NCBI RefSeq assembly: GCF_988242995.1
Contig: NZ_OZ547043.1
Length of the DNA: 64,000 nt
Reading direction: 5' to 3' (one strand)
The position numbers and the translations under genes were made by a program. Every line of letters starts with the position of its first letter. Position 1 is the stretch's first letter. This document shows, in pieces, positions 11,167-24,801 of the stretch. The notes beneath the pieces are model-generated. The model saw only the letters and a program-made list of their open reading frames with translations. It ran no database searches and had not been told where the DNA came from.

Positions 11167-13530
11167 GTGGATATGGCAGCAGTAAAAATCTCAGGTGTGC
11201 TGAAAGATGGTGCGGGAAAACCAATACAGAACTGCACTATTCAACTGAAGGCAAAGCGTAACAGCACCACGGTACTGGTGAACACGGTGGCCTCTGAAAA
11301 TCCGGATGAAGCCGGGCGTTACAGCATGGATGTTGAGTATGGTCAGTACAGCGTCACCCTGCTGGTTGAAGGTTTTCCGCCTTCACATGCCGGGACCATT
11401 ACCGTCTATGAAGGTTCCAGACCAGGTACGCTGAATGATTTTCTCGGTGCCATGACGGAAGATGATGTCATGCCGGAGGCATTGCGTCGTTTTGAGGCAA
11501 TGGTGGAAGAAGCGGCACGCAACGCCGAAGCCGCCTCTCAGAGCGCAGCAGCGGCAAAGAAATCCGAAACTGCAGCGGCATCATCGAAGAACGCGGCGAA
11601 AACCTCAGAAACAAATGCAGCTAACAGCGCACAGGCGGCAGCGTCCTCGCAGACTGCATCGGCAAACTCCGCGACAGCAGCCAAAAAATCAGAAACCAAC
11701 GCGAAAAATAGCGAGACAGCCGCAAAGACGAGCGAAACCAACGCAAAGTCCAGCCAGACGGCAGCGAAAACAAGCGAAACGAATGCCAAAGCCAGTGAAA
11801 CTGCGGCAAAAAACAGCCAGGTTGCAGCAGCCCAAAGCGAGAGCGCGGCAGCCGGTTCTGCGACTTCAGCAGCTGGATCAGCAACTGCTGCGGCTAACAG
11901 CCAGAAAGCTGCGAAGACGAGTGAAACTAACGCAAAGTCCAGCCAGACGGCAGCGAAGACCAGCGAAACGAATGCCAAAGCCAGCGAAACTGCGGCGAAA
12001 AACAGTCAGGATGCAGCAGCCCAAAGCGAGAGTGCTGCAGCTGGTTCTGCCACTGCATCAGCCAACAGTCAAAAAGCAGCAAAAACCAGTGAAACCAATG
12101 CAAAGACAAGCGAGACTGCAGCGGCGAACTCGGCGAAAGCATCCGCTGCAAGCCAGACCGCTGCAAAAGCAAGTGAAGACGCAGCCAGAGAGTATGCAAG
12201 CCAGGCAGCAGATCCGTATAAATATGTCTTACAGCCGCTGCCTGATGTGTGGATACCGTTTAACGATTCACTGGATATGATTACGGGCTTTTCGCCATCA
12301 TATAAAAAGATTGTTATTGGTGACGACGAAATAACGATGCCTGGCGACAAGATTGTTAAGTTTAAACGTGCATCGAAAGCAACCTATATTAACAAATCTG
12401 GTGTGTTGACAGAGGCTGCCATTGATGAGCCACGATTTGAACGTGATGGCCTGCTTATTGAGGGGCAAAGAACTAATCTTCTGCTTAATTCAACAAATCC
12501 ATCTAAATGGAATAAGTCAGGCAATCTGGAACTCACAGAAATATCCACGGATTCTTTTAATTTTACTTATGGGAGATTTACTGTAAAAGATACTCTTATT
12601 GGTCAGACAAGTGCTATTAATATCGTAACGATTTCTGGCAGTAAAGGGTTTGATGTCACAGGTGATGAAAAATATGTGACCATTTCATGCCGTGTAAGAA
12701 GTGATGTTGAAAATATAAGGTGTCGTTTAAGATTTGAACACCATGATGGTTATACTTACACTTTTTTGGGAGATGCTTACCTCAATTTATCAACACTTGT
12801 AATTGATAAAACTGGTACTGCTGCAGACCGTATTATTGCAAAGGCTGTAAAAGATGAGGTTACTGGTTGGATTTTCTATCAGGCTACAATTAATGCACTA
12901 GATACAGAGAGCATGATTGGTGCGATGGTTCAATACGCTCCTGTAAAAGGTTCAGGTACAGCATCTGGAGACTATCTGGATATCGCAACTCCACAAGTGG
13001 AAGGTGGATCAAGTGCTTCGTCATTTATTGTAACTGATATAACTGCAAGCACTCGCGCAAGCGATATGGTGACAGTCCCAATCAAGAATAACCTTTATAA
13101 TCTTCCTTTTACGGTTCTTTGTGAGGTACATAAGAACTGGTATAAAACGCCAAATGCAGCACCGCGTGTTTTTGATACCGGCGGTCATCAAACCGGAGCG
13201 GCTATTATTCTTGGCTTCGGTCGTTCAACAGATTACGACGGATTTCCTTATTGTGATATAGGTTTGGCTAACAGACGGGTAAACGAAAACGCATCGCTTG
13301 AAAAAATGGTTATGGGGATGCGTGTAAAGTCAGATCAGTCTACGTGCTCAGTAAGTAACGGGCGTATATCCAGCGAAAAGAAAGCCACATGGTCCTATAT
13401 TCAGAACTCCGCAATTATCCGTATTGGAGGCCAGACTACAGCCGGGTTGCGTCATTTATTTGGTCATGTCAGGAATTTCAGAATATGGCACAAGGCATTG
13501 ACTGATGCTCAGATGGGGGAGTCAATCTAA
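11167..13530 (+). CDS. stf: Side tail fibre protein (Stf-like) with a replaced C-terminal receptor-binding region
   Basis: 787 aa; N-terminal region with Ala/Ser/Thr-rich KTSETNAK-type repeats typical of Stf; the C-terminal ~400 aa are markedly AT-richer by eye and end in a motif (GHVRNFRIWHKALTDAQM) reminiscent of ConA/LamG-like lectin folds. Confidence 0.8.
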   Translation: MDMAAVKISGVLKDGAGKPIQNCTIQLKAKRNSTTVLVNTVASENPDEAGRYSMDVEYGQYSVTLLVEGFPPSHAGTITVYEGSRPGTLNDFLGAMTEDDVMPEALRRFEAMVEEAARNAEAASQSAAAAKKSETAAASSKNAAKTSETNAANSAQAAASSQTASANSATAAKKSETNAKNSETAAKTSETNAKSSQTAAKTSETNAKASETAAKNSQVAAAQSESAAAGSATSAAGSATAAANSQKAAKTSETNAKSSQTAAKTSETNAKASETAAKNSQDAAAQSESAAAGSATASANSQKAAKTSETNAKTSETAAANSAKASAASQTAAKASEDAAREYASQAADPYKYVLQPLPDVWIPFNDSLDMITGFSPSYKKIVIGDDEITMPGDKIVKFKRASKATYINKSGVLTEAAIDEPRFERDGLLIEGQRTNLLLNSTNPSKWNKSGNLELTEISTDSFNFTYGRFTVKDTLIGQTSAINIVTISGSKGFDVTGDEKYVTISCRVRSDVENIRCRLRFEHHDGYTYTFLGDAYLNLSTLVIDKTGTAADRIIAKAVKDEVTGWIFYQATINALDTESMIGAMVQYAPVKGSGTASGDYLDIATPQVEGGSSASSFIVTDITASTRASDMVTVPIKNNLYNLPFTVLCEVHKNWYKTPNAAPRVFDTGGHQTGAAIILGFGRSTDYDGFPYCDIGLANRRVNENASLEKMVMGMRVKSDQSTCSVSNGRISSEKKATWSYIQNSAIIRIGGQTTAGLRHLFGHVRNFRIWHKALTDAQMGESI

Positions 13531-13811
13531 TGAAAGATTTAACACTCAAATTTGCAGACAGGGCCGACTTTTCGGCCTTTATGGATAGCATTGGCTATTA
13601 TGATGACGAGTCGATGCAGGATGATATTCTTATTGACGTGATAGGTAACGTGTACAAAGAAACCGGAGAACTGACTGAAGATGGCGAACCGGTATGTGTT
13701 AAGGAAGACGGATATTTTGTAAACGTGCGCATCATTAATGATGCAAAAAAATCGTCAATATTCGATGAATACGCGGTTGTAGTTGAACATCAACTTCGTG
13801 GCTGGATGTGA
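13530..13811 (+). CDS. Hypothetical acidic 93-aa protein; possible tail-fibre chaperone
   Basis: ATG overlaps the stf stop (TAATG), suggesting translational coupling; no family recognised. Confidence 0.4.
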   Translation: MKDLTLKFADRADFSAFMDSIGYYDDESMQDDILIDVIGNVYKETGELTEDGEPVCVKEDGYFVNVRIINDAKKSSIFDEYAVVVEHQLRGWM

Positions 13812-13820
13812 GGGAGACAA

Positions 13821-14525
13821 ATGGCTACATCGACAGTAATTCCAGGAGACATCACCACGTTAAAGGGAGATGTCAGTAAAGCCAAGGAAGATATTTCCTC
13901 AATTAACGGAAAAGTATCAACGCTTCAGGCTGATATGACCAGTGCAAAGCAGGATATCAGCACCAGATACACAAAAACTGAAGTTGATAATAAGCTGAAA
14001 AACAAACTGGAAGTGAACGCTCTGGAAAGCGGTCGTTATGGTGGAGATTTTTACCCGTTGACTGGCCGTGAAGCGTTTTATTTGTGGGGATTGGGCACGA
14101 CTACAGCGGCGGCAAACCTTTATCTTAATCCTGACCCCGCAATTTCGTCTGTGCTGCGGTCAACATCGTCTATCCGCTATAAACATTCAGTAGAGACAAT
14201 AGATTCAGAGCACGCCGAACTCATTTTCAGGATGCGCCCTGTGTGGTACAGGTCACAATGCGAAAATGACAGGCGTGACTGGGGATTCTACGGATTGATT
14301 GCCGAGGAAGTAGGAGAAATTGCCCCTCAGTTTGTACACTGGCGACCAGCTAACGAAGATGATGCACCGGAAGCTATTTCCAGCAATGGCCTTGTTGCCG
14401 AAGGTGTAATGTACGAACGTCTGGTTGTTCCACTGATTCACCATATCCAGAAGCTGACTGAAAGAGTTGATGAACTTGAGTCAGAATTAAAGTTGTTATC
14501 CGTTTCCCGAAGCGATATCGGATAA
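13821..14525 (+). CDS. Short fibre-like protein: N-terminal coiled coil plus C-terminal intramolecular-chaperone (peptidase S74-like) domain
   Basis: 234 aa; heptad-repeat N-terminus; C-terminal region (RPVWYRSQ...WGFYGLIAEEVGEIAPQFV...MYERLVVPLIHHIQKLTERVDELESEL) matches, from memory, the self-cleaving chaperone domain of endosialidase and T5 L-shaped tail fibres. Confidence 0.5.
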   Translation: MATSTVIPGDITTLKGDVSKAKEDISSINGKVSTLQADMTSAKQDISTRYTKTEVDNKLKNKLEVNALESGRYGGDFYPLTGREAFYLWGLGTTTAAANLYLNPDPAISSVLRSTSSIRYKHSVETIDSEHAELIFRMRPVWYRSQCENDRRDWGFYGLIAEEVGEIAPQFVHWRPANEDDAPEAISSNGLVAEGVMYERLVVPLIHHIQKLTERVDELESELKLLSVSRSDIG

Positions 14526-14535
14526 AGGAGGAGTA

Positions 14536-14829
14536 ATGGATATAACACCTTTCCTTCATGCGCTTTGTGCTGTGGCTGCGCAGCTACTGATTGGTCTTTT
14601 TACCGGGAACTGGGCTTACGGGGCGATAGCCGGTTGTACGTTCTTCATTGCGCGTGAACACACCCAGGCAGAATATCGCTGGATCGAAATGTTCGGGCAT
14701 GGCAAGCGAATGAATATGCCGTGGTGGGGCGGTTTTGATCCGCGCGCGTGGGATGTGGCAAGCCTGATGGATTTTGCTGTGCCGGTGGTGGCGTGTCTGC
14801 TGGTCTGGCTGTTGGTTAATCGTGGGTGA
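14536..14829 (+). CDS. Hypothetical small membrane protein
   Basis: 97 aa with two to three hydrophobic segments; GC-rich coding sequence; function unknown. Confidence 0.35.
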   Translation: MDITPFLHALCAVAAQLLIGLFTGNWAYGAIAGCTFFIAREHTQAEYRWIEMFGHGKRMNMPWWGGFDPRAWDVASLMDFAVPVVACLLVWLLVNRG

Positions 14830-14839
14830 AAAAAGGTGA

Positions 14840-14968
14840 GCTGTATATGCAACGGAGGAAGAAACCCCGTTGCTGGAAGCCTGGAAAAAGTATCGGATGC
14901 TGCTGAACCGTGTTGATACATCAACTGCACCTGATATTGAGTGGCCTACGAACCCTGTCAGGGAGTAA
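14840..14968 (+). pseudogene. tfa: 3' remnant of a tail fibre assembly gene (tfa), lacking start and N-terminal part
   Basis: Frame-2 translation gives ...[36 protein letters not shown], which matches the conserved C-terminus of lambda/P2-type Tfa proteins as I recall it; an in-frame stop lies immediately upstream (14837-14839). Confidence 0.55.
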
Positions 14969-15180
14969 TCATTGGGATTATGCCGCAGAAACGTTGTATG
15001 CAATAACGTTCTGCGGTTGGCTGATGCACTTTCGAGAGTGCATGTATTGAATTATTTCCAGCTATTATCGATTTTACGTATTTTTTGCATGAGAGAATTT
15101 GTACCTCCTCCCAACAACGACCTTCCATGACTTTCCGGACTTCTGTGGGCCAGCGGACGATGCTGCCCTCGGATGTTGTG

Positions 15181-16038
15181 CTAATTGGGTGATGACAAAT
15201 CCTGTGTATGGGTGTTTCCCTTTGTGCGTGCGTTGATGCTGGTAACGGTGAACGTCATGATGAACACAACCGCGAATAAGACGACAATCGTCGGAGCTGG
15301 TGCACTGTCGATAAAAAAGGACAACCAGACACCAGTCATTGACACTATTACCGATATGCCAATCGCCAGTAGGAGCGCAATATGAAAGCGTTGTGTCAGG
15401 AGTACCGCAATGGCGCCAGGCGCAATGAGCAGAGAAATGGAGAGAATGATACCTACCGCTTTCAGCGTCGCCACAATGGTCAGAGAGACCATGCACAGCA
15501 GCCCATAATGCAGACATCTCGTATGCAAACCGCTTACCTGCGCCTGTTGATAATCAAAGCTGAACAGCAAAAAATCCCGCCATTTTACGCTAATAACAAG
15601 TGTAACCAGCCCGGCAATAATCACCGTCTGGATTATATCGCCGATGGTTACCCCGAGCATGTCGCCGAAAAGAATATGGTCAAGATGTACGTCTGGTTTG
15701 ACTGCAATATACAAGATCAGACCTGCGGCAAACATGCCAGAAAAAACAATCCCCATCACTGTATCTTGCTTGATTCGGCTGTTGTCTTTCAGGTATCCCG
15801 TCGCCACCGCGCAGAATACTCCGGCGACGAATGCCCCTGTAGCCAGAGGTAACCCCAGAATCCAGGCAAGCACGATGCCAGGAAAAACCGCATGACTCAT
15901 CGCGTCACCCATCAGTGCCCAACCTTTCAGGACCAGAAAGACCGACAGCAGCGCACAGGGTATGGAAACTACCAGTGAAATCAGCAGTGCGTGACTCATA
16001 AAGGTGAACTGCAGTGGCTCCAGTAATAATGCCATCAT
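15181..16038 (-). CDS. sitD: Mn/Fe ABC transporter permease SitD
   Basis: 285-aa polytopic membrane protein of the ABC-3 (ZnuB/MntB) type; last gene of a four-gene operon with overlapping stop/start codons. Confidence 0.8.
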   Translation of the reverse strand: MMALLLEPLQFTFMSHALLISLVVSIPCALLSVFLVLKGWALMGDAMSHAVFPGIVLAWILGLPLATGAFVAGVFCAVATGYLKDNSRIKQDTVMGIVFSGMFAAGLILYIAVKPDVHLDHILFGDMLGVTIGDIIQTVIIAGLVTLVISVKWRDFLLFSFDYQQAQVSGLHTRCLHYGLLCMVSLTIVATLKAVGIILSISLLIAPGAIAVLLTQRFHIALLLAIGISVIVSMTGVWLSFFIDSAPAPTIVVLFAVVFIMTFTVTSINARTKGNTHTQDLSSPN

Positions 16039-16892
16039 GAGCGATCCTCCAGCGCTTTATGCGCACGCCGACGATTTGCCAAAAGCCCATGGGTGGGCGC
16101 AAATACAAATGCTAAAAGAAACAGCAGTGTCTGCGCCACCACGATGATTCCACCTGTCGCGCCGTCCAGAAAGTAACTGACCCACGCGCCGAGGAAACTG
16201 GTTACACTGCCAATAGTTACAGCAATTATGAGCAGGCGGGGAAAACGATCGGTTAACAACCATGCTGTTGCACCGGGAGTCACCACCAGACAGATCACCA
16301 GAAAGGCACCAACCGTTTGCAGCGCCGCAACGGTCGAAACCGACAGCAGGGTGAAGAAGAGGATTTTTAATCTGCCCGGATGCAATCCAATAGCACGAGC
16401 GTGATTCTCGTCGAAAAAGGTCACCATAAGATCTTTCCATTTGAAAAAAAGCACGATGATCGAGAGAATGCCAATGATAGTGAGTTGCAGGATATCCGCC
16501 GGATCGATTGCCAGAATATTGCCCAGGACGATGGTCTGAATGTTCACGGATGTCGGGTTCAATGACACCATAAACAGCCCCAGGCCAAAAAAGGAGGAGA
16601 AGATCAGGCCGATGATGGCATCTTCTTTTAAGCGAGTGCGTTGGTTAAGAAACAGCATGCTGCCCGCTGCCAGTCCGCCGGAAAAGAAGGCTCCCAGAGA
16701 AAACGGAAGCCCCAGCATATATGCCCCCGCAACACCCGGGACAATAGAGTGCGACAGCGCATCGCCAATCAGCGACCAGCCTTTTAGCATCAGATAGCAT
16801 GACAGGAAAGCGCAGAGACCGCCGACCATCGCCGAGACCCACATCGCATTGAGCATATATTCATAGCTGAAGGGTTCCAGTAGCACGTTCAT
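16035..16892 (-). CDS. sitC: Mn/Fe ABC transporter permease SitC
   Basis: 285-aa polytopic membrane protein; overlaps sitB and sitD by 4 nt each. Confidence 0.8.
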
Positions 16893-17716
16893 CTTGCTTC
16901 CCCCTGCACCGCTGACGGTCGATGTGCCACAAAAGGGTGTTCATCGTCAGTAATAATGCTTTCTTCCGAGCCGTTAAGTGTGACATGGCGCAGTACGCCG
17001 CTAAAAGCCAGCTCCAGGTTCTCGGCTGTAAAAGTGGTGTCTGTCGGCCCGCTTGCCAGGACGGTGCCTTTGACCATGACCGTATAATCGCAAAATGTCG
17101 TGACTGAGCCGAGATTGTGCGTTGAGACAAGCATCGTCTTGCCTTCCGCGCGTAACTCCCTCAACAGGCTGATGATTTTCGCTTCGGTTTTCACATCAAC
17201 GCCCGTAAAAGGTTCATCCAGCAGGATCACATCACCCTGCTGTGCAATCGCTCTCGCCAGAAAGACGCGTTTCTTTTGTCCACCGGAAAGCTCGCCGATT
17301 TGTCGATGGCGAAAATCCACCATATCGACACGTTCCAGCGCATCGGTGACAATCTGACGATCCCTCTTTTTGGCTATACGCAACATACCCATGTGCCCAT
17401 AGCGGCCCATCATCACCACATCTTCCACTAGTACAGGAAATGACCAGTCAACCTCTTCTGACTGAGGGACGTAGGCAACCAGGTTTTTCTGTAGCGCCTG
17501 TCGCGTGGGAATACCCAGAACAGATATCTTTCCGCTGGTCAGACGCACAAATCCCATAATCGCTTTAAACAACGTCGATTTTCCGGAACCGTTTACCCCA
17601 ACCAGAGCGGCAATAGATCCACTTGGTACTGTGAAGGATGCATCGCGCAGTGCTGTGTGCCCGTTACGCCAGGTGACAGTAACATCATTAACGACAATGC
17701 CCGCAGATTGCATCAT
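16889..17716 (-). CDS. sitB: Mn/Fe ABC transporter ATP-binding protein SitB
   Basis: Walker [10 protein letters not shown], signature LSGGQKKR, Walker B ILLDEP. Confidence 0.85.
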
Positions 17717-18630
17717 TATTTCTCCCTTTTCCCGGCTTTAATTCCCTGTACCAGCGTACTGGTAGTAACCTTCAGAAGGTCGATATACGTAGGTACCGGG
17801 CCGTTTTCTGTGCTCAGGGAATCGACATAGAGTACACCGCCGTAGTGCGCGCCGGTTTCACGCGCAACCTGACGCGCTGGTTTATCGGAAATCGTACTCT
17901 CGCTAAAGACTGCCGGGATATGATTTTTCTTCACCATATCAACAACCTTACGTACCTGCTGCGGCGTGCCTTGTTGATCGGCATTAATCGGCCACAGATA
18001 AAGCTCTTTTAGCCCCAAATCGCGTGCGAGATAAGAAAAAGCCCCTTCACTGGTGACCATCCATCGCTGATTCTCAGGGAGTTCAGCAATCTGCTTACGC
18101 AGGGGGGCAAGGGTTTGGGTAATCTTGGCTTTATAAGTATCGGCATTACGTTGGTAGGTTTGTGCATTTGCCGGATCGTATTTTATCAACGCATCACGAA
18201 TATTATCGACGTAAATCAGAGCATTATCTGGCGACATCCAGGCATGGGGGTTAGGTTTGCCCTCATAGGGGCCTTCAGTGATCCCTACTGGCGTCACACC
18301 CGAAGAGACAATTACTTCTGGAACCCCATTAAGATGCTGGTAAAAGCGTTGGAACCACAATTCCAGATTCATACCATTGGCGAGAATCAGTTGTGCCCCC
18401 TGCGCACGTTTAATATCGCCAGGGGTAGGCTGATACTCATGAATTTCTGCACCGGGCTTGGTTATGGATGAGACTTCTGCAGCATCTCCAGCCACGTTTT
18501 TGGCCATATCTGCGATGATGGTAAATGTTGTAATGACCTTGAATTTTTCAGTTGCACTCGCCTGAAATGCGATCGAGCAGGTGAGGGCGAGGCACCCCAA
18601 GAGCATGGTTACTTTTTTTATTGAGTACAT
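17716..18630 (-). CDS. sitA: Periplasmic metal-binding protein SitA (cluster A-I substrate-binding protein)
   Basis: 304 aa with a signal peptide; first gene of the operon; MntR and Fur boxes lie upstream. Confidence 0.85.
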
Positions 18631-19184: not shown

Positions 19185-19210
19185 AAAAAGCCCGCAGGAA
19201 TGTGCGGGCG
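19185..19210 (-). terminator. Intrinsic terminator downstream of uspF
   Basis: On the minus strand, a gcccgca-cattcc-tgcgggc hairpin followed by TTTTTG. Confidence 0.55.
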
Positions 19211-19216
19211 TTAGTG

Positions 19217-19732
<516 letters not shown>

Positions 19733-19759
19733 TTAGATCAAAGGAGGAAGAATAAGCAG

Positions 19760-19783
19760 AAAAAGCCCGCCATAACAGCGGGC
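19760..19783 (-). terminator. Intrinsic terminator downstream of ompN
   Basis: On the minus strand, a gcccgc-tgttat-ggcgggc hairpin followed by TTTTTC. Confidence 0.55.
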
Positions 19784-19791
19784 AGGAGGAT

Positions 19792-20910
19792 TTAGAACTG
19801 ATAAACCAGACCTAAAGCGACAATATCATCGGTAGAGATGCCGTTGGCAGCGTAGAAGCTGTCATCTTCATCCAACAGGTTGATTTTATAGTCAACATAA
19901 GTGGACATGTTTTTATTGAAATAGTAAGTCGCGCCAACATCGGCGTATTTAACCAGATCTTTATCACCGTCGGTACCGACCAAATCCTTGCCTTTAGACA
20001 TCAGGAAAGAGACTGCCGGACGCAGCCCAAAATCGAACTGATACTGCGCAGTAACTTCAAAGTTCTGGGTTTTGTTGGCAATCGTATTTGTTGAATCACC
20101 GTAAGGTGTCATGTTACGCGTTTCAGAATACATGGTCGCCAGGTAGATATTGTTAGCATCGTATTTTGCCCCGGCAGTCCAGGCATCTGCCTTATCGCCT
20201 TTTGCGGTAGAGAATTCAGCCTGCTGGTTAGTGCGATCGGAACTGGTATAGGCGGCACCAAAACTCATGCCCATACCTAAGTCGTAGGTAGTAGAGATGC
20301 CAAGACCGTCGCCATTGGCGTTCTTAATGTTTCGATCACCACCGTTTGCGGTACCTTCTTGCTCATGGGTGACCTGGTTTTCATTCGCACCCTGGTACTG
20401 TAACGCAAAATTCAGACCATCAACCAGACCGAAGAAATCAGTATTACGATAGGTTGCTACGCCATTGGCTCGACCGGTCATATAGTTATCGGCTTTGGTA
20501 TAAGAGTCACCACCGAATTCCGGTAGCATATCGGTCCAGCCTTCGATGTCGTACATTACGCCATAATTACGACCATAGTCGAATGAACCCAGGTCACCAA
20601 ATTTCAGACCGGCAAAAGCAAGACGAGTCCAGGAATCACCTTTATCACCTTCAGAGCCATTAGCCTGCACGTTATATTCCCACTGGCCATACCCAACCAG
20701 TTGATCCGTGATTTGCGTTTCACCCTTAAAACCAAAACGCACATAAGTTTGATCACCATCACTATTGGTATTATCAGAAAAATAATGCAGGCCATCAACT
20801 TTGCCATACAGATCTAATTTGTTGCCGTCTTTATTATAAACTTCGGCTGCATGTGCAGCACCTGCGGCGAGCAGGGCAGGAATTAAAAGTGCCAGTACTT
20901 TGCTTTTCAT
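19792..20910 (-). CDS. ompN: Outer membrane porin OmpN (OmpC/OmpF family)
   Basis: 372 aa; signal peptide [21 protein letters not shown], porin-like body, C-terminal ...GLVYQF. Confidence 0.8.
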
Positions 20911-21138
20911 TGAATAAATCCTTTAGTTATTTTATTTGCCTTTTCATCCCCATTTTGGGGAGTGAAAGCATCCTAAAGGAGAAGTTCAGTTAGCCGATAA
21001 ATATCATTTGTTACGCCTTAAGTAAAACCTTAATCAAATAATTCTTCTGAAATGATAATAAGTCTGGTGAATGTATTGAAGATAATACATACAAAATAAA
21101 AATTATACTTTTAATTTGCTATACGTTATTCTGCGCGG

Positions 21139-21248
21139 GTTATATGCCTTTATTGTCACAGATTTTATTTTCTGTTGGGCCATTGCGTTGCTACTGATTT
21201 TCCAACAAATAATGAGACAAGCCCGAACAGTCGTTCGGGCTTTTTTTT
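21139..21248 (+). ncRNA. micC: MicC small regulatory RNA
   Basis: Starts GTTATATGCCTTTATTGTCACAGATTTTATTTTCTGTTGGGCCATTGC and ends in a GCCCGAAC-AGTC-GTTCGGGC hairpin plus T8; matches the MicC sequence I recall and its known location between ompN and ydbK. Confidence 0.8.
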
Positions 21249-21276
21249 AGAATTGGATAATCCTTATCCAGTGCAT

Positions 21277-24200
21277 TTAATCGGTGTTGCTTTTTTCCGC
21301 TTTTCCGGCCATTTGTGCCAGGAAGTCATAGCGTTTTTGCAAATCAGCTGCAGCATCTTTCCATAACTGTTCTGCCACTTCTGGCTGCTGCGAATTCAGA
21401 CGACGGAAACGCTGCTCGTGAAGTAACGTTTCTTCCAGTGCTTCTGACGGCGGGCGTGAATCCAGTGCCAGCGGCAGTTTGCCTTCATCGGCTCGACGTG
21501 GATCGAAGCGATATAGCGGCCAGAAGCCGGTGGCAGTGAGTTGGCGCATCTGGTCGTGGCTGAGTGCCAGATCGTAACCATGCTCTTCACACGGGCTATA
21601 AGCAATGATCAGCGATGGCCCCGGATACGCTTCCGCTTCCTGAATCGCTTTCACCGTCTGGTTCAGCTGCGCGCCGAGAGAAATCTGCGCCACATAAACA
21701 TGACCGTACATCATCATACTGACGCCAAGATCTTTACGCGCTTTACGTTTGCCGTGCTCGCCAAACTTAGTCACCGCGCCAAGCGGCGTGGCTTTTGACG
21801 CCTGACCACCGGTATTGGAATAGCATTGCGTATCCAGCACCAGAATGTTGACGTTTTCCGTCAAACTCAATACATGATCCAGACCGCCAAAGCCGATATC
21901 GTAAGCCCAGCCGTCGCCACCAATCAGCCAGATTGATTTTTCCACCAGTGCATCTGCGTCACGTAGCAGTTCATGTGCTTCGGCAACATCGTTGAGTTGC
22001 TGGCGTAAAGCTGCGACCTGTTCTCGACGAACCTCTGGCGTGGCGTCTGATTTCAACGCAGTCAGTAATTCCGCCGGGATTTTATCGGCAAATTGATCCA
22101 GCAGACGCAGCACGCGGACACGGTGTTGATCGACCGTCAGGCGGAAACCAAGGCCAAATTCGGCATTATCTTCAAATAGAGAGTTCGCCCATGCCGGCCC
22201 GCGACCGTTGGTATCGGTGGTATACGGTGTAGAGGGCAGGTTACCGCCATAAATTGAAGAACAGCCGGTGGCGTTAGCGATCAACATCCGGTCGCCATAG
22301 AGCTGAGTCAGCAATTTAATATACGGCGTCTCGCCACAACCGGAGCAAGCACCGGAATATTCAAACAGCGGTGTAATCAGCTGCGATGTACGAATATCAA
22401 TACGCTCCAGTTTGCTACGGTCGATTTCTGGCAGGTTGAGGAAGAAATCGTAATTGATTTTCTCTTCTTCGACATGTTCCAGCCGCGACATCATATTGAT
22501 GGCTTTAATCTCTGGATTCTGACGGTCTTTCGCCGGGCAAACTTCGACGCACAGGTTACAACCGGTGCAATCTTCCGGAGCCACCTGCAAGACATATTTC
22601 TGCCCGCGCATATCACGCGATTTCACATCCAGCGAATGCAGGCTGGCAGGGGCGTTTTCCATCGCTTCAGGCGGCACCACTTTTGCGCGAATAGCTGAGT
22701 GTGGGCAAGCGGCGACGCAGTGGTTACATTGGGTACAGAGTTCCTCTTTCCAGATGGGGATCTCTTCGGCGATATTGCGTTTTTCCCAGCGCGTGGTGCC
22801 CATCGGCCAGGTGCCGTCTGGCGGCAGCGCCGAAACGGGGAGGGCATCACCAAGCCCGGCGAGCATCGCCGCGGTTACGGTTTTCACGAAATCAGGGGCG
22901 GCATCGGAAACCACTGGCGGTCGATTGGCGCTGTGCGGATTAACCGGCTGCAGCGGAACTTCTTCTACGGATTCACGTGCCAGCGCCAGAGCCTGCCAGT
23001 TGCGTTCCACCAGATCCTGACCTTTGCTACTGTAACTTTTGGCAATCGCACCCTGCAATTCTGCGAGGGCGCTATCGCCAGGCAGAATTTGCGTAAGATG
23101 GAAAAAAGCCATCTGCATGACGGTATTAATACGGGCCGCCAGGCCACATTCGCGGGCGATTTTCGCCGCGTTAATCACATAGAAGCGCGCTTTTTTCTGG
23201 TTTAACACGGCCTGAACTTCTTGCGGCAAGCGCGACCACACTTCATCTGCGCTGTACGGCGTGTTGAGCAGGAAAATGCCGCAAGGTTTTAAACGCTCAG
23301 CCATCTGATATTTATCGATAAACTGCAACTGGTGGCAGCCAACAAAATCAGCCTGGGAAATGAGATAAGCGGAACGAATCGGCTGTTCGCTCACGCGAAG
23401 GTGAGAAACCGTCAGGCCGCCCGCCTTTTTGGAGTCGTAAACAAAATAGCCCTGTGCGTACCACGGCGTGGAATTACCGATAATCTTGATATTGTTTTTG
23501 GTCGCGGAAACGCTGCCATCGCTACCAAGGCCATAAAACAAGGCTTCAAGTTTCGCCGAGTTTGGCAGGGTGTTTTCCGGCAACGGCAGTGACAGATTGG
23601 TCACATCATCGTAAATACCAACCGTAAAGCGCGCTTTCGGTTTAGCCGCGTTGAGCTCGGCAAATACCGCCAGTACACAGTCCGGGCCAAATTCTTTGGA
23701 TGAAAGACCATAGCGCCCACCAATGACACGGGGCAGGGTTTCGCGCTCGCCATTATTAAAGGCTTCTGCCAGTGCGGTCATCACATCCAGATAGAGCGGT
23801 TCAGCCTGGGCACCGGGTTCTTTGGTTCTGTCCAGTACCGCCACGCTGCGTACGGATCCCGGCAGAGCTTGTAGCAAGTGTTTGGCGGAGAAGGGACGGT
23901 ACAGGCGAACTTTCAGCACGCCGACTTTTTCGCCACGGGTTAGCAATTCATCAACCACTTCTTCACAGGTGCCAATGGCAGAGCCCATCAGGATAATCAC
24001 CCGTTCCGCTTGCGGATGCCCGTAATACTCAAACGGCTGATACTGACGACCTGTCGCGGCAGAGAAATCATTCATCGCCTGTTCAACATGGTCGTAAACT
24101 GCGTTGTACCACGGGTTGGTGGCTTCACGTGACTGGAAATAGGTGTCCGGGTTAGCCGAGGTACCACGAATCACCGGATGCTCCGGATTCAGCGCGCGGG

Positions 24201-24801
24201 CGCGGTGGGCATCAATTTCGGCCTGCGGTATCAGTTCAAGAATCGTGTCATCGGCCAGCGGGACAATTTTATTGATTTCGTGGGACGTGCGGAAACCATC
24301 AAAGAAATGAATAAATGGCACGCGACTCTTCAGCGTCGCGATGTGCGAAATAAGAGCAAAGTCTTGCGCTTCCTGGACGTTTGCCGCACACAACATCGCG
24401 CAACCCGTCTGGCGCACCGCCATAACGTCGGAATGATCGCCAAAAATAGAGAGTGCATGTGTGGCAACGGTACGTGCCGCTACATGCAGGACAAATGGCG
24501 TCAGTTCGCCTGCCAGTTTGTACAGCGTCGGGATCATCAGCAGCAAACCCTGCGATGACGTAAACGATGTTGAAAGGGCACCCGTCTGCAAAGCGCCATG
24601 CACGGTAGCGATAGCCCCCGCTTCCGACTGCATTTCAACCACGCGTGGTGTGTCTCCCCAAACGTTCTTCAAGCCGTTTCCGGCCCATGCATCAGCCTGT
24701 TCTGCCATCGTGGAACTGGGGGTAATAGGGTAGATGGCGATAACTTCACTGGTGCGAAACGCCACCGAAGCAACCGCGCCATTACCGTCAATAGTAATCA
24801 T
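21277..24801 (-). CDS. ydbK: Pyruvate:flavodoxin/ferredoxin oxidoreductase
   Basis: 1174 aa; 4Fe-4S cysteine motifs (CTQCNHCVAACP, CTGCNLCVEVCP); TPP-binding region. Confidence 0.9.
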   Translation of the reverse strand: MITIDGNGAVASVAFRTSEVIAIYPITPSSTMAEQADAWAGNGLKNVWGDTPRVVEMQSEAGAIATVHGALQTGALSTSFTSSQGLLLMIPTLYKLAGELTPFVLHVAARTVATHALSIFGDHSDVMAVRQTGCAMLCAANVQEAQDFALISHIATLKSRVPFIHFFDGFRTSHEINKIVPLADDTILELIPQAEIDAHRARALNPEHPVIRGTSANPDTYFQSREATNPWYNAVYDHVEQAMNDFSAATGRQYQPFEYYGHPQAERVIILMGSAIGTCEEVVDELLTRGEKVGVLKVRLYRPFSAKHLLQALPGSVRSVAVLDRTKEPGAQAEPLYLDVMTALAEAFNNGERETLPRVIGGRYGLSSKEFGPDCVLAVFAELNAAKPKARFTVGIYDDVTNLSLPLPENTLPNSAKLEALFYGLGSDGSVSATKNNIKIIGNSTPWYAQGYFVYDSKKAGGLTVSHLRVSEQPIRSAYLISQADFVGCHQLQFIDKYQMAERLKPCGIFLLNTPYSADEVWSRLPQEVQAVLNQKKARFYVINAAKIARECGLAARINTVMQMAFFHLTQILPGDSALAELQGAIAKSYSSKGQDLVERNWQALALARESVEEVPLQPVNPHSANRPPVVSDAAPDFVKTVTAAMLAGLGDALPVSALPPDGTWPMGTTRWEKRNIAEEIPIWKEELCTQCNHCVAACPHSAIRAKVVPPEAMENAPASLHSLDVKSRDMRGQKYVLQVAPEDCTGCNLCVEVCPAKDRQNPEIKAINMMSRLEHVEEEKINYDFFLNLPEIDRSKLERIDIRTSQLITPLFEYSGACSGCGETPYIKLLTQLYGDRMLIANATGCSSIYGGNLPSTPYTTDTNGRGPAWANSLFEDNAEFGLGFRLTVDQHRVRVLRLLDQFADKIPAELLTALKSDATPEVRREQVAALRQQLNDVAEAHELLRDADALVEKSIWLIGGDGWAYDIGFGGLDHVLSLTENVNILVLDTQCYSNTGGQASKATPLGAVTKFGEHGKRKARKDLGVSMMMYGHVYVAQISLGAQLNQTVKAIQEAEAYPGPSLIIAYSPCEEHGYDLALSHDQMRQLTATGFWPLYRFDPRRADEGKLPLALDSRPPSEALEETLLHEQRFRRLNSQQPEVAEQLWKDAAADLQKRYDFLAQMAGKAEKSNTD

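What the first reader, a model, noticed from the sequence alone, without database searches (positions are those of the whole stretch)
14536..14829. Small membrane protein wedged between the fibre module and the tfa remnant
A 97-aa protein with two or three hydrophobic helices sits where lambda-like phages often carry host-interaction cargo (superinfection exclusion, receptor masking). Its GC content is unlike the adjacent AT-rich fibre module, suggesting an independent acquisition. No family recognised.
Basis: inference. Interest (0 to 1): 0.4.

Follow-up and report, generated by a model that had tools for sequence, protein, structure and literature searches.

The report
Conserved phage membrane protein, function unknown
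The 97-residue open reading frame is a real gene under purifying selection for a three-helix membrane protein that sits just after the receptor-binding genes of many phages of Proteobacteria and is present in about a third of E. coli genomes, but nobody has shown what it does.

Summary
The ORF at 14536-14829 (+) is real: ATG start, AAGGAGG ribosome-binding site 4 nt upstream, 97 aa, three predicted helices (AlphaFold pLDDT 93.8), GC 54.8% against 41-46% in its neighbours. It is not family-less. It matches PHROG 1443 (unknown function, E 6e-59), is 96-100% identical to genes of phage 21 and of the LF82 prophages Tritos and Perceval, and occurs in 1905 of 5426 complete E. coli genomes. Relatives form 435 clusters, and the loci whose organism was identified are mostly alpha-, beta- and gammaproteobacteria and Desulfovibrio. 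dN/dS is about 0.04-0.3.

It lies directly after tail-fibre, tailspike or fibre-chaperone genes in sipho-, myo- and podoviruses, including a lytic jumbo phage. It stays 93-100% identical while the fibre cassettes upstream are swapped, so the AT-rich fibre DNA looks like the mobile part, not this gene.

There is no Pfam, NCBIfam, PADLOC or structural match. Published LF82 RNA-seq shows no autonomous expression in lysogens. However, stand-alone chromosomal copies in Aeromonas and Leclercia are under purifying selection.

My best guess (about 0.35) is an inner-membrane protein that blocks phage entry or alters the envelope through a conserved host target, independent of receptor type. Rivals are a lysis accessory, a fibre-module factor, or a membrane mini-enzyme or channel.

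The parts
14536..14829 (+). The 97-aa three-helix membrane protein gene (PHROG 1443). The core motif is A-R-E-H-T-Q-A-E-Y-R-W-I ... G-K-R-x-N-M-P-W-W-G-G-F-D-P-R-x-W ... S-L-x-D-x-x-x-P.
   Evidence: ORF. PHROG 1443 E 5.8e-59. 575 homologues. Invariant columns. AF2 pLDDT 93.8 with helices 4-23, 26-53 and 74-96. dN/dS 0.04-0.3.
14525..14531 (+). Shine-Dalgarno sequence AAGGAGG, 4 nt before the ATG, starting at the last base of the upstream gene's stop codon.
   Evidence: Read directly from the sequence. A similar AAAGGAG(G) element lies upstream of the homologues in Gally and phage 21.
13821..14525 (+). A 234-aa free-standing tail-fibre-domain protein with a C-terminal intramolecular chaperone (Peptidase_S74). 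It is equivalent to the last ~240 residues of 1385-aa fibres.
   Evidence: Pfam PF13884 E 5.4e-6. phrog_3299 E 1e-139, profile positions 1147-1384 of 1385.
13530..13811 (+). A 93-aa acidic soluble protein (phrog_1361/18574). It is the usual upstream partner of the 97-aa gene in phage 21-type loci and is probably specific to the Stf receptor-binding domain.
   Evidence: phrog_1361 E 8e-47. Directly adjacent to the 97-aa gene in phage 21. Distant relatives sit directly upstream of the homologue in Comamonas and Pantoea.
11167..13530 (+). Side tail fibre Stf (787 aa): conserved N-terminal domain, Ala/Ser/Thr-rich repeats, and a hypervariable AT-rich C-terminal receptor-binding half.
   Evidence: PF08400 E 1e-66. 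phrog_1419. C-terminal half 39-100% identical among loci. GC 40.7%.
14870..14968 (+). Remnant of a tail fibre assembly gene (tfa), last ~28-32 codons only. It is found 44 nt downstream of the 97-aa gene in many E. coli loci.
   Evidence: Caudo_TAP E 1.5e-13, profile positions 103-130 of 131. RefSeq 'incomplete, missing N-terminus'. Recurrence across loci.
14982..15043 (.). Two stable hairpins (14982-15017 and 15024-15043) between the late/tail operon and the convergent sitDCBA operon. They are candidate bidirectional terminators.
   Evidence: RNA fold -32.8 kcal/mol, z -4.26 against shuffles. The simple terminator scan did not call them because there is no T-run.

Best explanation
The gene encodes a small inner-membrane protein of a widespread, uncharacterised phage family (PHROG 1443).

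**Shown.**
- It is a real gene under purifying selection.
- Its model has three helices.
- Its best-conserved part is the stretch from the end of helix 2 to the start of helix 3 (R40, E41, Q44, E46, Y47, R48, W49, R58, M61, P62, W64, G65, G66, F67, D68, W72), plus H8 in helix 1 and D79 and P83 in helix 3.
- It sits at the 3' edge of receptor-binding-protein modules in phages of all three tail types.
- It stays constant while those modules are exchanged.
- Stand-alone chromosomal copies are retained under purifying selection.

**Inferred.**
- By helix register, H8, R40/E41 and D79 lie at the same depth and, with the Trp/Arg-rich loop, form one polar and aromatic site at one membrane face.
- That site binds or acts on a host envelope or inner-membrane component that is conserved across Proteobacteria.
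- The result is protection of the cell that makes the protein against phage entry (superinfection exclusion at or after adsorption) or another envelope change, independent of which receptor the adjacent fibre uses.
- In this window it is most likely transcribed with the late tail genes, with at most low expression in the lysogen.
For: - **Real gene.** SD plus ATG. dN/dS 0.04-0.3 against 45 E. coli alleles and 0.13-0.35 within Aeromonas, Leclercia, Silvania and Comamonas.
- **Breadth.** 575 homologues. 435 clusters at 50% identity, all listed members 58-146 aa. 1905 of 5426 E. coli genomes, median 2 copies.
- **Membrane protein with a conserved site.**
- **Position next to receptor-binding genes.** Phage 21, phiHAP-1, Gally, 611R6 and ACP1, HC6. 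Among the two nearest upstream ORFs of 37 bacterial loci, the commonest PHROG families are tail and tail-fibre families, though each covers only a few loci and many neighbours have no match.
- **Independence from fibre type.** 93-100% identity against 39-100% for the Stf C-terminal domain, with several different middle genes.
- **Host-side retention.** In Aeromonas media, rivipollensis and taiwanensis, copies lie next to a conserved 286-aa gene (three RIO1-domain hits among downstream neighbours). Together with the A. aquatica copy, omega is about 0.14-0.18 with dS up to 0.68. Leclercia copies are flanked by LysR or GNAT genes, and the A. aquatica copy by a pirin gene. Some copies are followed by their own hairpin or terminator.
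Against: - No experiment exists on any member.
- There is no sequence or fold similarity to any known exclusion protein.
- In this window there is no promoter-like site on the + strand and only a 10-nt gap to the upstream late gene.
- In LF82 lysogens the identical Tritos copy is at background in LB, DMEM and macrophages. The Perceval and Gally copies are not listed as morons (PMC9928086). The caveat is that Perceval's Lom gene is not listed as a moron there either, so the threshold may be coarse.
- The family also occurs in a strictly lytic jumbo phage, between fibre genes, and next to holin and endolysin genes in some phages. Both fit a lytic-cycle role.
- Membrane topology is unresolved.
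Confidence: 0.35

Rival explanations
1. Late-cycle lysis or egress accessory. The protein is made with the late genes and modulates holin triggering, membrane energisation or envelope breakdown, for example as an antiholin- or holin-partner-like factor.
For: - It is small with three helices, is oriented and packed with late genes, and is silent in LF82 lysogens.
- In Comamonas and Pantoea prophages it lies immediately upstream of, and sometimes overlapping, one or two multi-TM holin-like genes, an endolysin and an Rz-like spanin.
- In Aeromonas phage 62AhydR11PP it overlaps by 4 nt a 173-aa two-TM protein that follows a lysozyme-like gene. Reading these two genes as a holin and an endolysin is my own interpretation of the sequences, without a family hit.
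- At least three of 37 bacterial loci have endolysin-family genes among the two nearest downstream ORFs.
Against: - In E. coli lambdoid phages such as phage 21 it lies at the far end of the tail genes, next to the sit operon, with no lysis gene in the 12-kb stretch examined.
- There is no charged C-terminal tail and no dual start, and Pfam gave no significant match to any family, holin families included.
- A strongly conserved 35-residue loop is atypical of holins.
- Stand-alone chromosomal copies under purifying selection are hard to explain for a lysis factor.
- In phages where the lysis cassette simply follows the tail genes, adjacency may be incidental.
Confidence: 0.2
2. Membrane-embedded mini-enzyme or ion/lipid-binding protein. 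The buried His/Arg-Glu/Asp cluster plus the Trp-rich interfacial loop would catalyse or bind a reaction on a lipid-linked envelope precursor, or conduct ions when oligomerised. The phage would use this to remodel the envelope.
For: - Invariant or near-invariant polar residues lie inside or at the ends of the helices (H8, R40, E41, D79, S76), and the loop is almost immutable across 435 clusters.
- The fold is confident with no structural relative.
- Weak context hints: a KpsF/KdsD-like SIS+CBS gene directly upstream on one metagenomic contig, with an unannotated ORF of the same size and spacing on a second, and lipid A acyltransferase hits among downstream neighbours.
Against: - Conserved buried charges may simply hold the three-helix bundle together.
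- 97 aa is very small for an enzyme.
- There are no domain fusions or conserved enzymatic partners.
- The context hints come from one or two lineages only.
Confidence: 0.15
3. Factor belonging to the fibre module itself, for example a membrane-sited helper for assembly, processing or attachment of fibres.
For: - It sits directly after fibre, tailspike or fibre-chaperone genes, or between fibre genes, in very different phages.
- It moves together with the 3' ends of S74-chaperone fibre genes: remnants lie just upstream in Gally and 611R6, and a decayed fragment lies after the S74 fibre of the T1-like phage HC6.
Against: - To my knowledge no membrane protein has been shown to take part in fibre assembly (background knowledge, not tested here).
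- The protein is constant while fibre types differ.
- It has decayed in T1-like phages that keep the fibre.
- Chromosomal orphans are retained without fibres.
- AlphaFold2 of a 93-aa-linker-97-aa fusion gave pTM 0.44, so there is no support for a complex with the neighbouring small protein.
Confidence: 0.1
4. No function of its own: a conserved hitch-hiking sequence kept only as a homology anchor for recombination that swaps fibre cassettes.
For: It forms the constant 3' flank of a hypervariable cassette, often together with a tfa remnant.
Against: - A DNA anchor would not show dN/dS of 0.04-0.3.
- It would not show protein-level conservation at 40-60% identity across proteobacterial classes.
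- It would not keep a conserved start with a strong ribosome-binding site.
Confidence: 0.05

Closest known systems
PHROG 1443 / RefSeq 'hypothetical protein' WP_000355601-type, including phage 21 CPT_21_24 'putative membrane protein', Perceval PERCE_24 and Tritos TRITO_22
   Same: Same family: full-length profile match (E 5.8e-59) and 96-100% identity, in the same position after the side tail fibre genes.
   Different: Nothing differs; this is the family. It has no assigned function and no Pfam or NCBIfam model.
Cor (phi80, N15, T1, HK022) and Llp (T5): exclusion proteins encoded next to tail or receptor-binding genes. The comparison rests on my own knowledge of these proteins, not on a test here.
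   Same: A small envelope protein encoded immediately beside the receptor-binding genes. A decayed copy of the present family sits just downstream of the tail fibre gene in the T1-like phage HC6.
   Different: - Cor and Llp act on one outer-membrane receptor (FhuA), and Llp is a lipoprotein.
- This protein has no lipobox or signal-peptide n-region, has three hydrophobic helices, and shows no sequence match to them.
- It does not co-vary with fibre type and is not visibly expressed in lysogens.
Inner-membrane superinfection-exclusion proteins: T4 Imm, P22 SieA, HK97 gp15
   Same: A small phage-encoded inner-membrane protein. A receptor-independent block of genome entry is the kind of mechanism that would fit the constant sequence.
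   Different: - There is no detectable sequence or fold relationship.
- Those proteins are, as far as I know, restricted to narrow phage groups, whereas this family spans several proteobacterial classes with a near-invariant motif.
- The function has not been tested.
Class I holins such as lambda S105 (three TMDs)
   Same: About 100 aa, three helices, a late gene, and sometimes adjacent to endolysin and spanin genes.
   Different: - No charged C-terminal domain and no dual-start motif.
- A long conserved loop, which holins lack.
- Pfam gave no significant match to any family, holin families included.
- Phage 21, which carries the gene, is the textbook pinholin/SAR-endolysin phage and so already has a lysis system (background knowledge). 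In it this gene lies at the far end of the tail genes.

Membership tests
PHROG 1443 (phage protein family of unknown function) | Full-length match to the family profile | tested here: met
   E 5.8e-59, residues 1-96 against profile positions 1-96 of 97. Near-identical genes occur in phages 21, Tritos, Perceval, HannyBb and 2G7b.
Moron / lysogenic-conversion cargo | Own promoter and terminator flanking the gene | tested here: not met
   No promoter-like site on the + strand in 13400-15300. There is a 10-nt gap to the upstream late gene and no terminator directly after the gene; hairpins come only after the tfa remnant. The scan is consensus-based, so weak promoters could be missed.
Moron / lysogenic-conversion cargo | Transcribed in the lysogen independently of the lytic genes | tested here: not met
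   From published LF82 RNA-seq read here. TRITO_22 (100% identical) has 1-17 reads in all conditions. PERCE_24 (96% identical) is about 1.7x the prophage background in LB. The paper reports no moron in Gally, which carries the third copy (PMC9928086). Caveats: Perceval's Lom gene is also below that threshold, and PERCE_22-24 rise in macrophages.
Moron / lysogenic-conversion cargo | Base composition unlike its neighbours | tested here: met
   54.8% GC against 40.7-45.8%. However, comparison of loci indicates that the neighbours are the exchanged part.
Cor / Llp-type lipoprotein exclusion factors | Signal peptide with lipobox, or sequence match to the family | tested here: not met
   The N-terminus MDITPFLHALC has no positively charged n-region and the residues before C11 (H-A-L) do not fit a lipobox. 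There is no Pfam, PHROG or PADLOC match to such families.
Cor / Llp-type lipoprotein exclusion factors | Blocks infection through a specific outer-membrane receptor | not testable with these tools
   Needs infection assays.
Class I holin | Three TMDs with N-out/C-in topology and a charged cytoplasmic C-terminal tail | tested here: inconclusive
   Three helices are predicted. The C-terminal tail is only N-R-G here (median 4 residues in the family). Topology is ambiguous: the loop carries 5.7 K/R on average, and the longer tails at both ends are also K/R-rich.
Class I holin | Encoded in a lysis cassette with an endolysin; match to a holin family | tested here: not met
   No lysis genes are near it in this window or in the 12-kb stretch of phage 21 examined. 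Pfam gave no significant match. Adjacency to lysis genes is seen only in some lineages.
Known inner-membrane Sie proteins (T4 Imm, P22 SieA, HK97 gp15) and catalogued defence systems | Sequence or structural homology | tested here: not met
GtrA-like O-antigen conversion flippase subunit | About 120 aa, four TMDs, match to the GtrA family, and gtrB/gtrC partners (features recalled from my own knowledge of Gtr systems) | tested here: not met
   Three helices, no Pfam match, and no ORF resembling gtrB or gtrC nearby.

The most novel reading that the evidence does not exclude
The family is a previously unrecognised, near-universal accessory of receptor-binding modules in phages of Proteobacteria. 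It would be a 3-helix inner-membrane protein whose buried His/Arg-Glu/Asp cluster and invariant Trp/Arg-rich interfacial loop form an active or ligand-binding site for a conserved lipid-linked or inner-membrane host component. It would thereby give receptor-independent control over phage entry or envelope state. That would explain two things at once: why it stays constant while fibres are swapped, and why bacteria keep orphan copies.
Probability: 0.2. Interest if true: 0.65.

Novelty: new variant of a known kind. Interest (0 to 1): 0.4.

Why it matters
- **Prevalence.** The gene is in about 35% of complete E. coli genomes, often in several copies, and in classic phages such as phage 21. Yet it is annotated only as 'hypothetical protein' and has no Pfam model.
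- **Possible new type of protection.** If it blocks phage entry or alters the envelope independently of the receptor, it would be a very common, unrecognised factor shaping phage host range and phage-therapy outcomes in Enterobacteriaceae and beyond.
- **Use for annotation.** Because it marks the constant 3' boundary of exchangeable receptor-binding cassettes, it is a practical landmark for annotating and engineering fibre modules.
- **If it is a lysis or assembly accessory instead,** it is still a conserved late gene missing from current models of lambdoid phage biology.

Tried and rejected
**Searches that found nothing**
- Pfam, NCBIfam and PADLOC scans gave no significant hit. The best was PhoR, E 0.059, below its cut-off.
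- A profile search of PDB sequences found nothing.
- An exhaustive profile search found only stand-alone proteins of similar size, so there are no domain-fusion clues.
- Literature searches by accession, PHROG id and topic found no study of the family. The phage 21 genome announcement does not discuss it.

**Tests that were negative or inconclusive**
- AlphaFold2 of a 93-aa-(G4S)6-97-aa fusion with a partly paired alignment gave pTM 0.44. Each half folded but there was no confident packing, so a complex with the neighbouring 93-aa protein is not supported. This is a weak negative.
- Topology from the positive-inside rule is contradictory. The loop has about 5.7 K/R, which favours the cytoplasm, but longer N- and C-tails are also K/R-rich, and the phage 21 record cites TMHMM as giving 2 TMDs, N-in/C-in.
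- Promoter scans upstream of the Gally, Aeromonas and Leclercia copies gave nothing beyond chance.

**Readings considered and rejected**
- Coding on the opposite strand. ORFs of 139 and 104 aa overlap the gene, but conservation and dN/dS follow the + frame.
- Lipoprotein: there is no lipobox.
- GtrA-like protein: no Pfam match, and three helices rather than the four I expect of GtrA.
- Recombination anchor without function: rejected by the selection analysis.

Full report

Yes. The ORF 14536-14829 (+) starts with ATG, encodes 97 aa and ends in TGA. AAGGAGG lies at 14525-14531, 4 nt before the start and overlapping the stop codon of the preceding gene.

Hydropathy shows two strongly hydrophobic segments (residues 9-23 and 80-94) and a weaker one (25-39). 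An AlphaFold2 model built on a 27-sequence alignment is very confident (mean pLDDT 93.8, pTM 0.77), with helices 4-23, 26-53 and 74-96.

GC content is 54.8%. The 93-aa gene is 40.8%, the 234-aa gene 45.8% and the Stf C-terminal half 40.7%.

Upstream is a fibre module: Stf at 11167-13530, a 93-aa gene, and a 234-aa fibre-domain protein with a Peptidase_S74 chaperone. Downstream is a remnant encoding only the last ~28 residues of a Tfa/Caudo_TAP protein.

**2. Where are we?**

The window carries a lambda-like prophage related to phage 21 and to the LF82 prophages Perceval and Tritos. Its tail genes (H to J), lom, stf and the convergent sitABCD operon are followed by uspF, ompN and nifJ.

**3. 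It belongs to a large family.**

- The protein matches PHROG 1443 (unknown function) over its whole length, E 5.8e-59.
- It is 100% identical to genes of phages HannyBb, Tritos and 2G7b, and 96% identical to phage 21 CPT_21_24, annotated 'putative membrane protein'.
- A 5.8-billion-protein search gave 575 homologues, all named 'hypothetical' and none with a Pfam domain.
- An exhaustive profile search found 435 clusters at 50% identity; the 150 listed are 58-146 aa.
- A species-level genome scan found the gene in Escherichia, Aeromonas, Leclercia, Silvania, Pantoea, Halomonas, Comamonas, Acidovorax, Pigmentiphaga, Chelativorans, Devosia, Novosphingobium, Sphingomonas/Sphingobium and Desulfovibrio.
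- The 294-bp gene occurs in 1905 of 5426 complete E. coli genomes, with a median of 2 and up to 7 copies, always annotated as hypothetical.

**4. It is under selection as a protein.**

Against 45 distinct E. coli alleles, dN/dS is 0.04-0.3. Within Aeromonas, Leclercia, Silvania and Comamonas it is 0.11-0.35, with dS up to saturation. The overlapping antisense ORFs are therefore not the coding frame.

**5. What is conserved.**

Among 27 diverse members the invariant residues are D2, H8, Q16, G29, C34, R40, E41, T43, Q44, A45, E46, Y47, R48, W49, I50, G56, R58, M61, P62, W64, G65, G66, F67, D68, W72, D79, P83 and C87.

In the most distant members the signature G-R-E-x-[AT]-Q-A-E-Y-R-W-I ... R-x-N-M-P-W-W-G-G-[FL]-D-x-R-x-W ... 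S-x-x-D-x-x-x-P persists.

By simple helix register (my inference), H8 in helix 1, R40/E41 in helix 2 and D79 in helix 3 lie at the same depth, next to the loop. One polar and aromatic site at one membrane face is therefore likely. I had no access to model coordinates to verify this.

Which face it is remains open. The loop carries about 5.7 K/R on average, which favours the cytoplasm. Long N- and C-terminal tails are also K/R-rich, and the phage 21 record quotes TMHMM as giving 2 TMDs, N-in/C-in.

**6. No known relative.**

- Pfam, NCBIfam and PADLOC gave no significant hit.
- PDB sequences gave nothing.
- Foldseek against PDB and viral models found nothing with E < 0.001.
- Literature searches found no study of the family.

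**7. Genomic context.**

*Next to receptor-binding genes*

| Phage or locus | Arrangement |
|---|---|
| Phage 21 | stf - 93 aa - 97 aa - (sitD convergent) |
| phiHAP-1 (P2-like myovirus) | tfa - homologue - sheath |
| Gally (P22-like) | tailspike - terminator - decayed 3' end of an S74 fibre gene - homologue - int |
| 611R6 (P22-like) | tailspike - O-acetylase - fibre fragment - homologue - int |
| ACP1 (lytic jumbo Aeromonas phage) | between a 1125-aa protein and a putative tail fibre |
| HC6 (T1-like) | a decayed 51-codon fragment right after an S74-type fibre |

In 37 bacterial loci, the PHROG families most often matched by the two nearest upstream ORFs are tail or tail-fibre families and relatives of the 93-aa protein. 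Each covers only a few loci (at most 6 of 72 ORFs), and many neighbours match nothing. The gap to the upstream same-strand gene is usually under 45 nt, or the genes overlap.

*Next to lysis genes in some lineages*

In Comamonas and Pantoea prophages the gene lies between the fibre genes and a lysis cassette of holin-like TM proteins, an endolysin and an Rz-like spanin. In Aeromonas phage 62AhydR11PP it overlaps a two-TM holin-like gene that follows a lysozyme-like gene; reading those two as holin and endolysin is my own interpretation.

*Constant flank of a swapped cassette*

Across 80 E. coli prophage loci the gene stays 93-100% identical while the Stf C-terminal domain ranges from 39 to 100% identity. 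The intervening genes also differ:
- stf-93-97
- stf-93-234-97
- stf-93-(about 1.1 kb holding an unmatched gene)-97
- stf-234-97

The tfa remnant often follows 44 nt downstream. The gene is thus the constant 3' flank of an exchangeable receptor-binding cassette.

**8. Expression.**

In the window there is no promoter-like site on the + strand and no terminator between the fibre genes and this gene. Stable hairpins come only after the tfa remnant, facing the sit operon.

Published RNA-seq of E. coli LF82, which carries three copies, was read here (PMC9928086):
- TRITO_22 (100% identical) has 1-17 reads in LB, DMEM and macrophages.
- PERCE_24 (96% identical) is about 1.7-fold above the prophage background in LB and is not classed as a moron.
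- The paper reports that Gally, which carries the third copy, has no moron at all.

There are two caveats:
- Perceval's Lom gene is also below the moron threshold, so the threshold may be coarse.
- Perceval's stf, 93-aa and 97-aa genes rise by log2 fold-changes of 4.85, 3.73 and 3.0 in macrophages, while J rises less and lom does not.

**9. Orphan copies.**

In Aeromonas media, rivipollensis and taiwanensis the gene lies next to the same 286-aa gene, with different genes upstream. The RIO1-domain hits among downstream neighbours probably belong to that gene.

In Leclercia the gene is flanked by LysR or GNAT genes upstream and methionine-synthase-like genes downstream. In A. aquatica a pirin gene lies upstream.

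These copies are intact and under purifying selection. Omega is about 0.14-0.18 in the four Aeromonas copies with dS up to 0.68, and 0.13-0.29 in Leclercia. Some are followed by their own hairpin or terminator.

This is the strongest hint that the protein benefits the cell that carries it.

**10. Mechanism.**

Putting this together, I favour a receptor-independent envelope or entry-blocking role through a conserved host component, at about 0.35. This fits:
- the position beside receptor-binding genes,
- the constancy across fibre types,
- the breadth of the family,
- the retained orphan copies.

It conflicts with the lack of visible lysogenic expression and with the gene's presence in a lytic jumbo phage.

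The rivals are:
- a lysis or egress accessory, about 0.2, supported by the late-gene packing and the lysis-cassette adjacency in some lineages;
- a membrane mini-enzyme or channel, about 0.15, supported by the buried polar cluster and the immutable loop;
- a fibre-module helper, about 0.1;
- a function-less recombination anchor, about 0.05, which the selection data contradict.

A test for a complex with the neighbouring 93-aa protein, using an AlphaFold2 linker fusion, was negative with pTM 0.44.

**11. Verdict.**

The gene is a member of a catalogued but uncharacterised family, not an orphan. It is ordinary in the sense that it is very common, and interesting in that such a common, sharply conserved phage membrane protein has no known function or structural relative. 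I rate interest as moderate, at 0.4.

Noticed in passing
window 13821-14525: A free-standing 234-aa 'mini-fibre'. It has its own start, an N-terminus like that of other fibre proteins (phrog_4563, residues 1-32), and a Peptidase_S74 intramolecular chaperone. It matches only the last ~240 residues of 1385-aa fibres (phrog_3299). In other E. coli loci this slot is empty or holds a different gene; in Tritos the gene directly upstream of the homologue is a 1041-bp 'tail fiber protein'.
   Followed up: partly
window 11167-14968, and loci L052-L131: The side-fibre region is a mosaic. The Stf N-terminus and the 97-aa gene (often with a tfa remnant 44 nt downstream) are constant. The Stf C-terminal domain (39-100% identity), the 93-aa gene (41-100%) and the middle gene are exchanged. 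It looks like a cassette system for host-range switching with conserved recombination flanks.
   Followed up: partly
window 11500-12250: The Stf gene contains long Ala/Ser/Thr/Lys-rich near-repeats (…KTSETNAKSSQTAAKTSETNAKASETAAKNSQ…). AT skew there is extreme, up to 0.68. The repeats also produce long spurious ORFs in other frames and on the other strand (272, 146, 93 and 90 aa).
   Followed up: no
window 14965-15045: Two stable hairpins (14982-15017 and 15024-15043; -32.8 kcal/mol, z -4.26) lie between the convergent late/tail operon and sitD. They are probably a bidirectional terminator, missed by the simple terminator scan because there is no T-run.
   Followed up: partly
window 15181-18630 (- strand), then about 19200-24800: A sitDCBA iron/manganese transporter operon is carried as cargo at the prophage end, as in phage 21 and LF82 Perceval. 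Beyond it lie uspF, ompN and nifJ.
   Followed up: partly
LF82 Perceval genes LF82_181-183 (homologues of window 11167-13811 and 14536-14829): In published RNA-seq, the stf, 93-aa and 97-aa genes rise in macrophages (log2 fold-change 4.85, 3.73 and 3.0), while J rises less and lom falls. The 93-aa gene is the highest, which suggests an internal start of transcription in or near the AT-rich stf 3' half. In Tritos the adjacent fibre gene rises too, but the 97-aa copy does not.
   Followed up: no
L016, L018, L022 (Aeromonas); L020, L025, L028 (Leclercia): Stand-alone copies of the family sit at conserved chromosomal positions. In Aeromonas they lie next to a conserved 286-aa gene, probably the source of the RIO1-domain hits. 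In Leclercia they lie next to LysR or GNAT genes. The upstream genes vary. All copies are intact and under purifying selection.
   Followed up: partly
L007 2965-3120 (phage HC6; the same hit occurs in other ~48-kb E. coli and Salmonella phages): T1-like lytic phages carry an unannotated, decayed 51-codon fragment of the family (…RRRANIPWWGGFDWRAWDLPSLLD) right after an S74-chaperone tail fibre gene. This is evidence that the gene travels with fibre 3' ends and can be lost.
   Followed up: partly
L010-L012 (metagenome contigs): A distant member (P0126) directly follows a KpsF/KdsD-like sugar-phosphate isomerase (SIS+CBS) on one short contig. An unannotated ORF of the same size and spacing precedes it on a second contig, and the third contig holds no upstream gene. 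This is a weak hint of a link to Kdo, LPS or capsule metabolism.
   Followed up: no
window 13530-13811: The 93-aa protein folds in AlphaFold2 (as part of the fusion test) into an alpha/beta domain with long beta-hairpins (block pLDDT 77-91). It shares a G-[YW]-[FH]-[VI]-N motif with the proteins directly upstream of the homologue in Comamonas and Pantoea. It has no Pfam match.
   Followed up: partly
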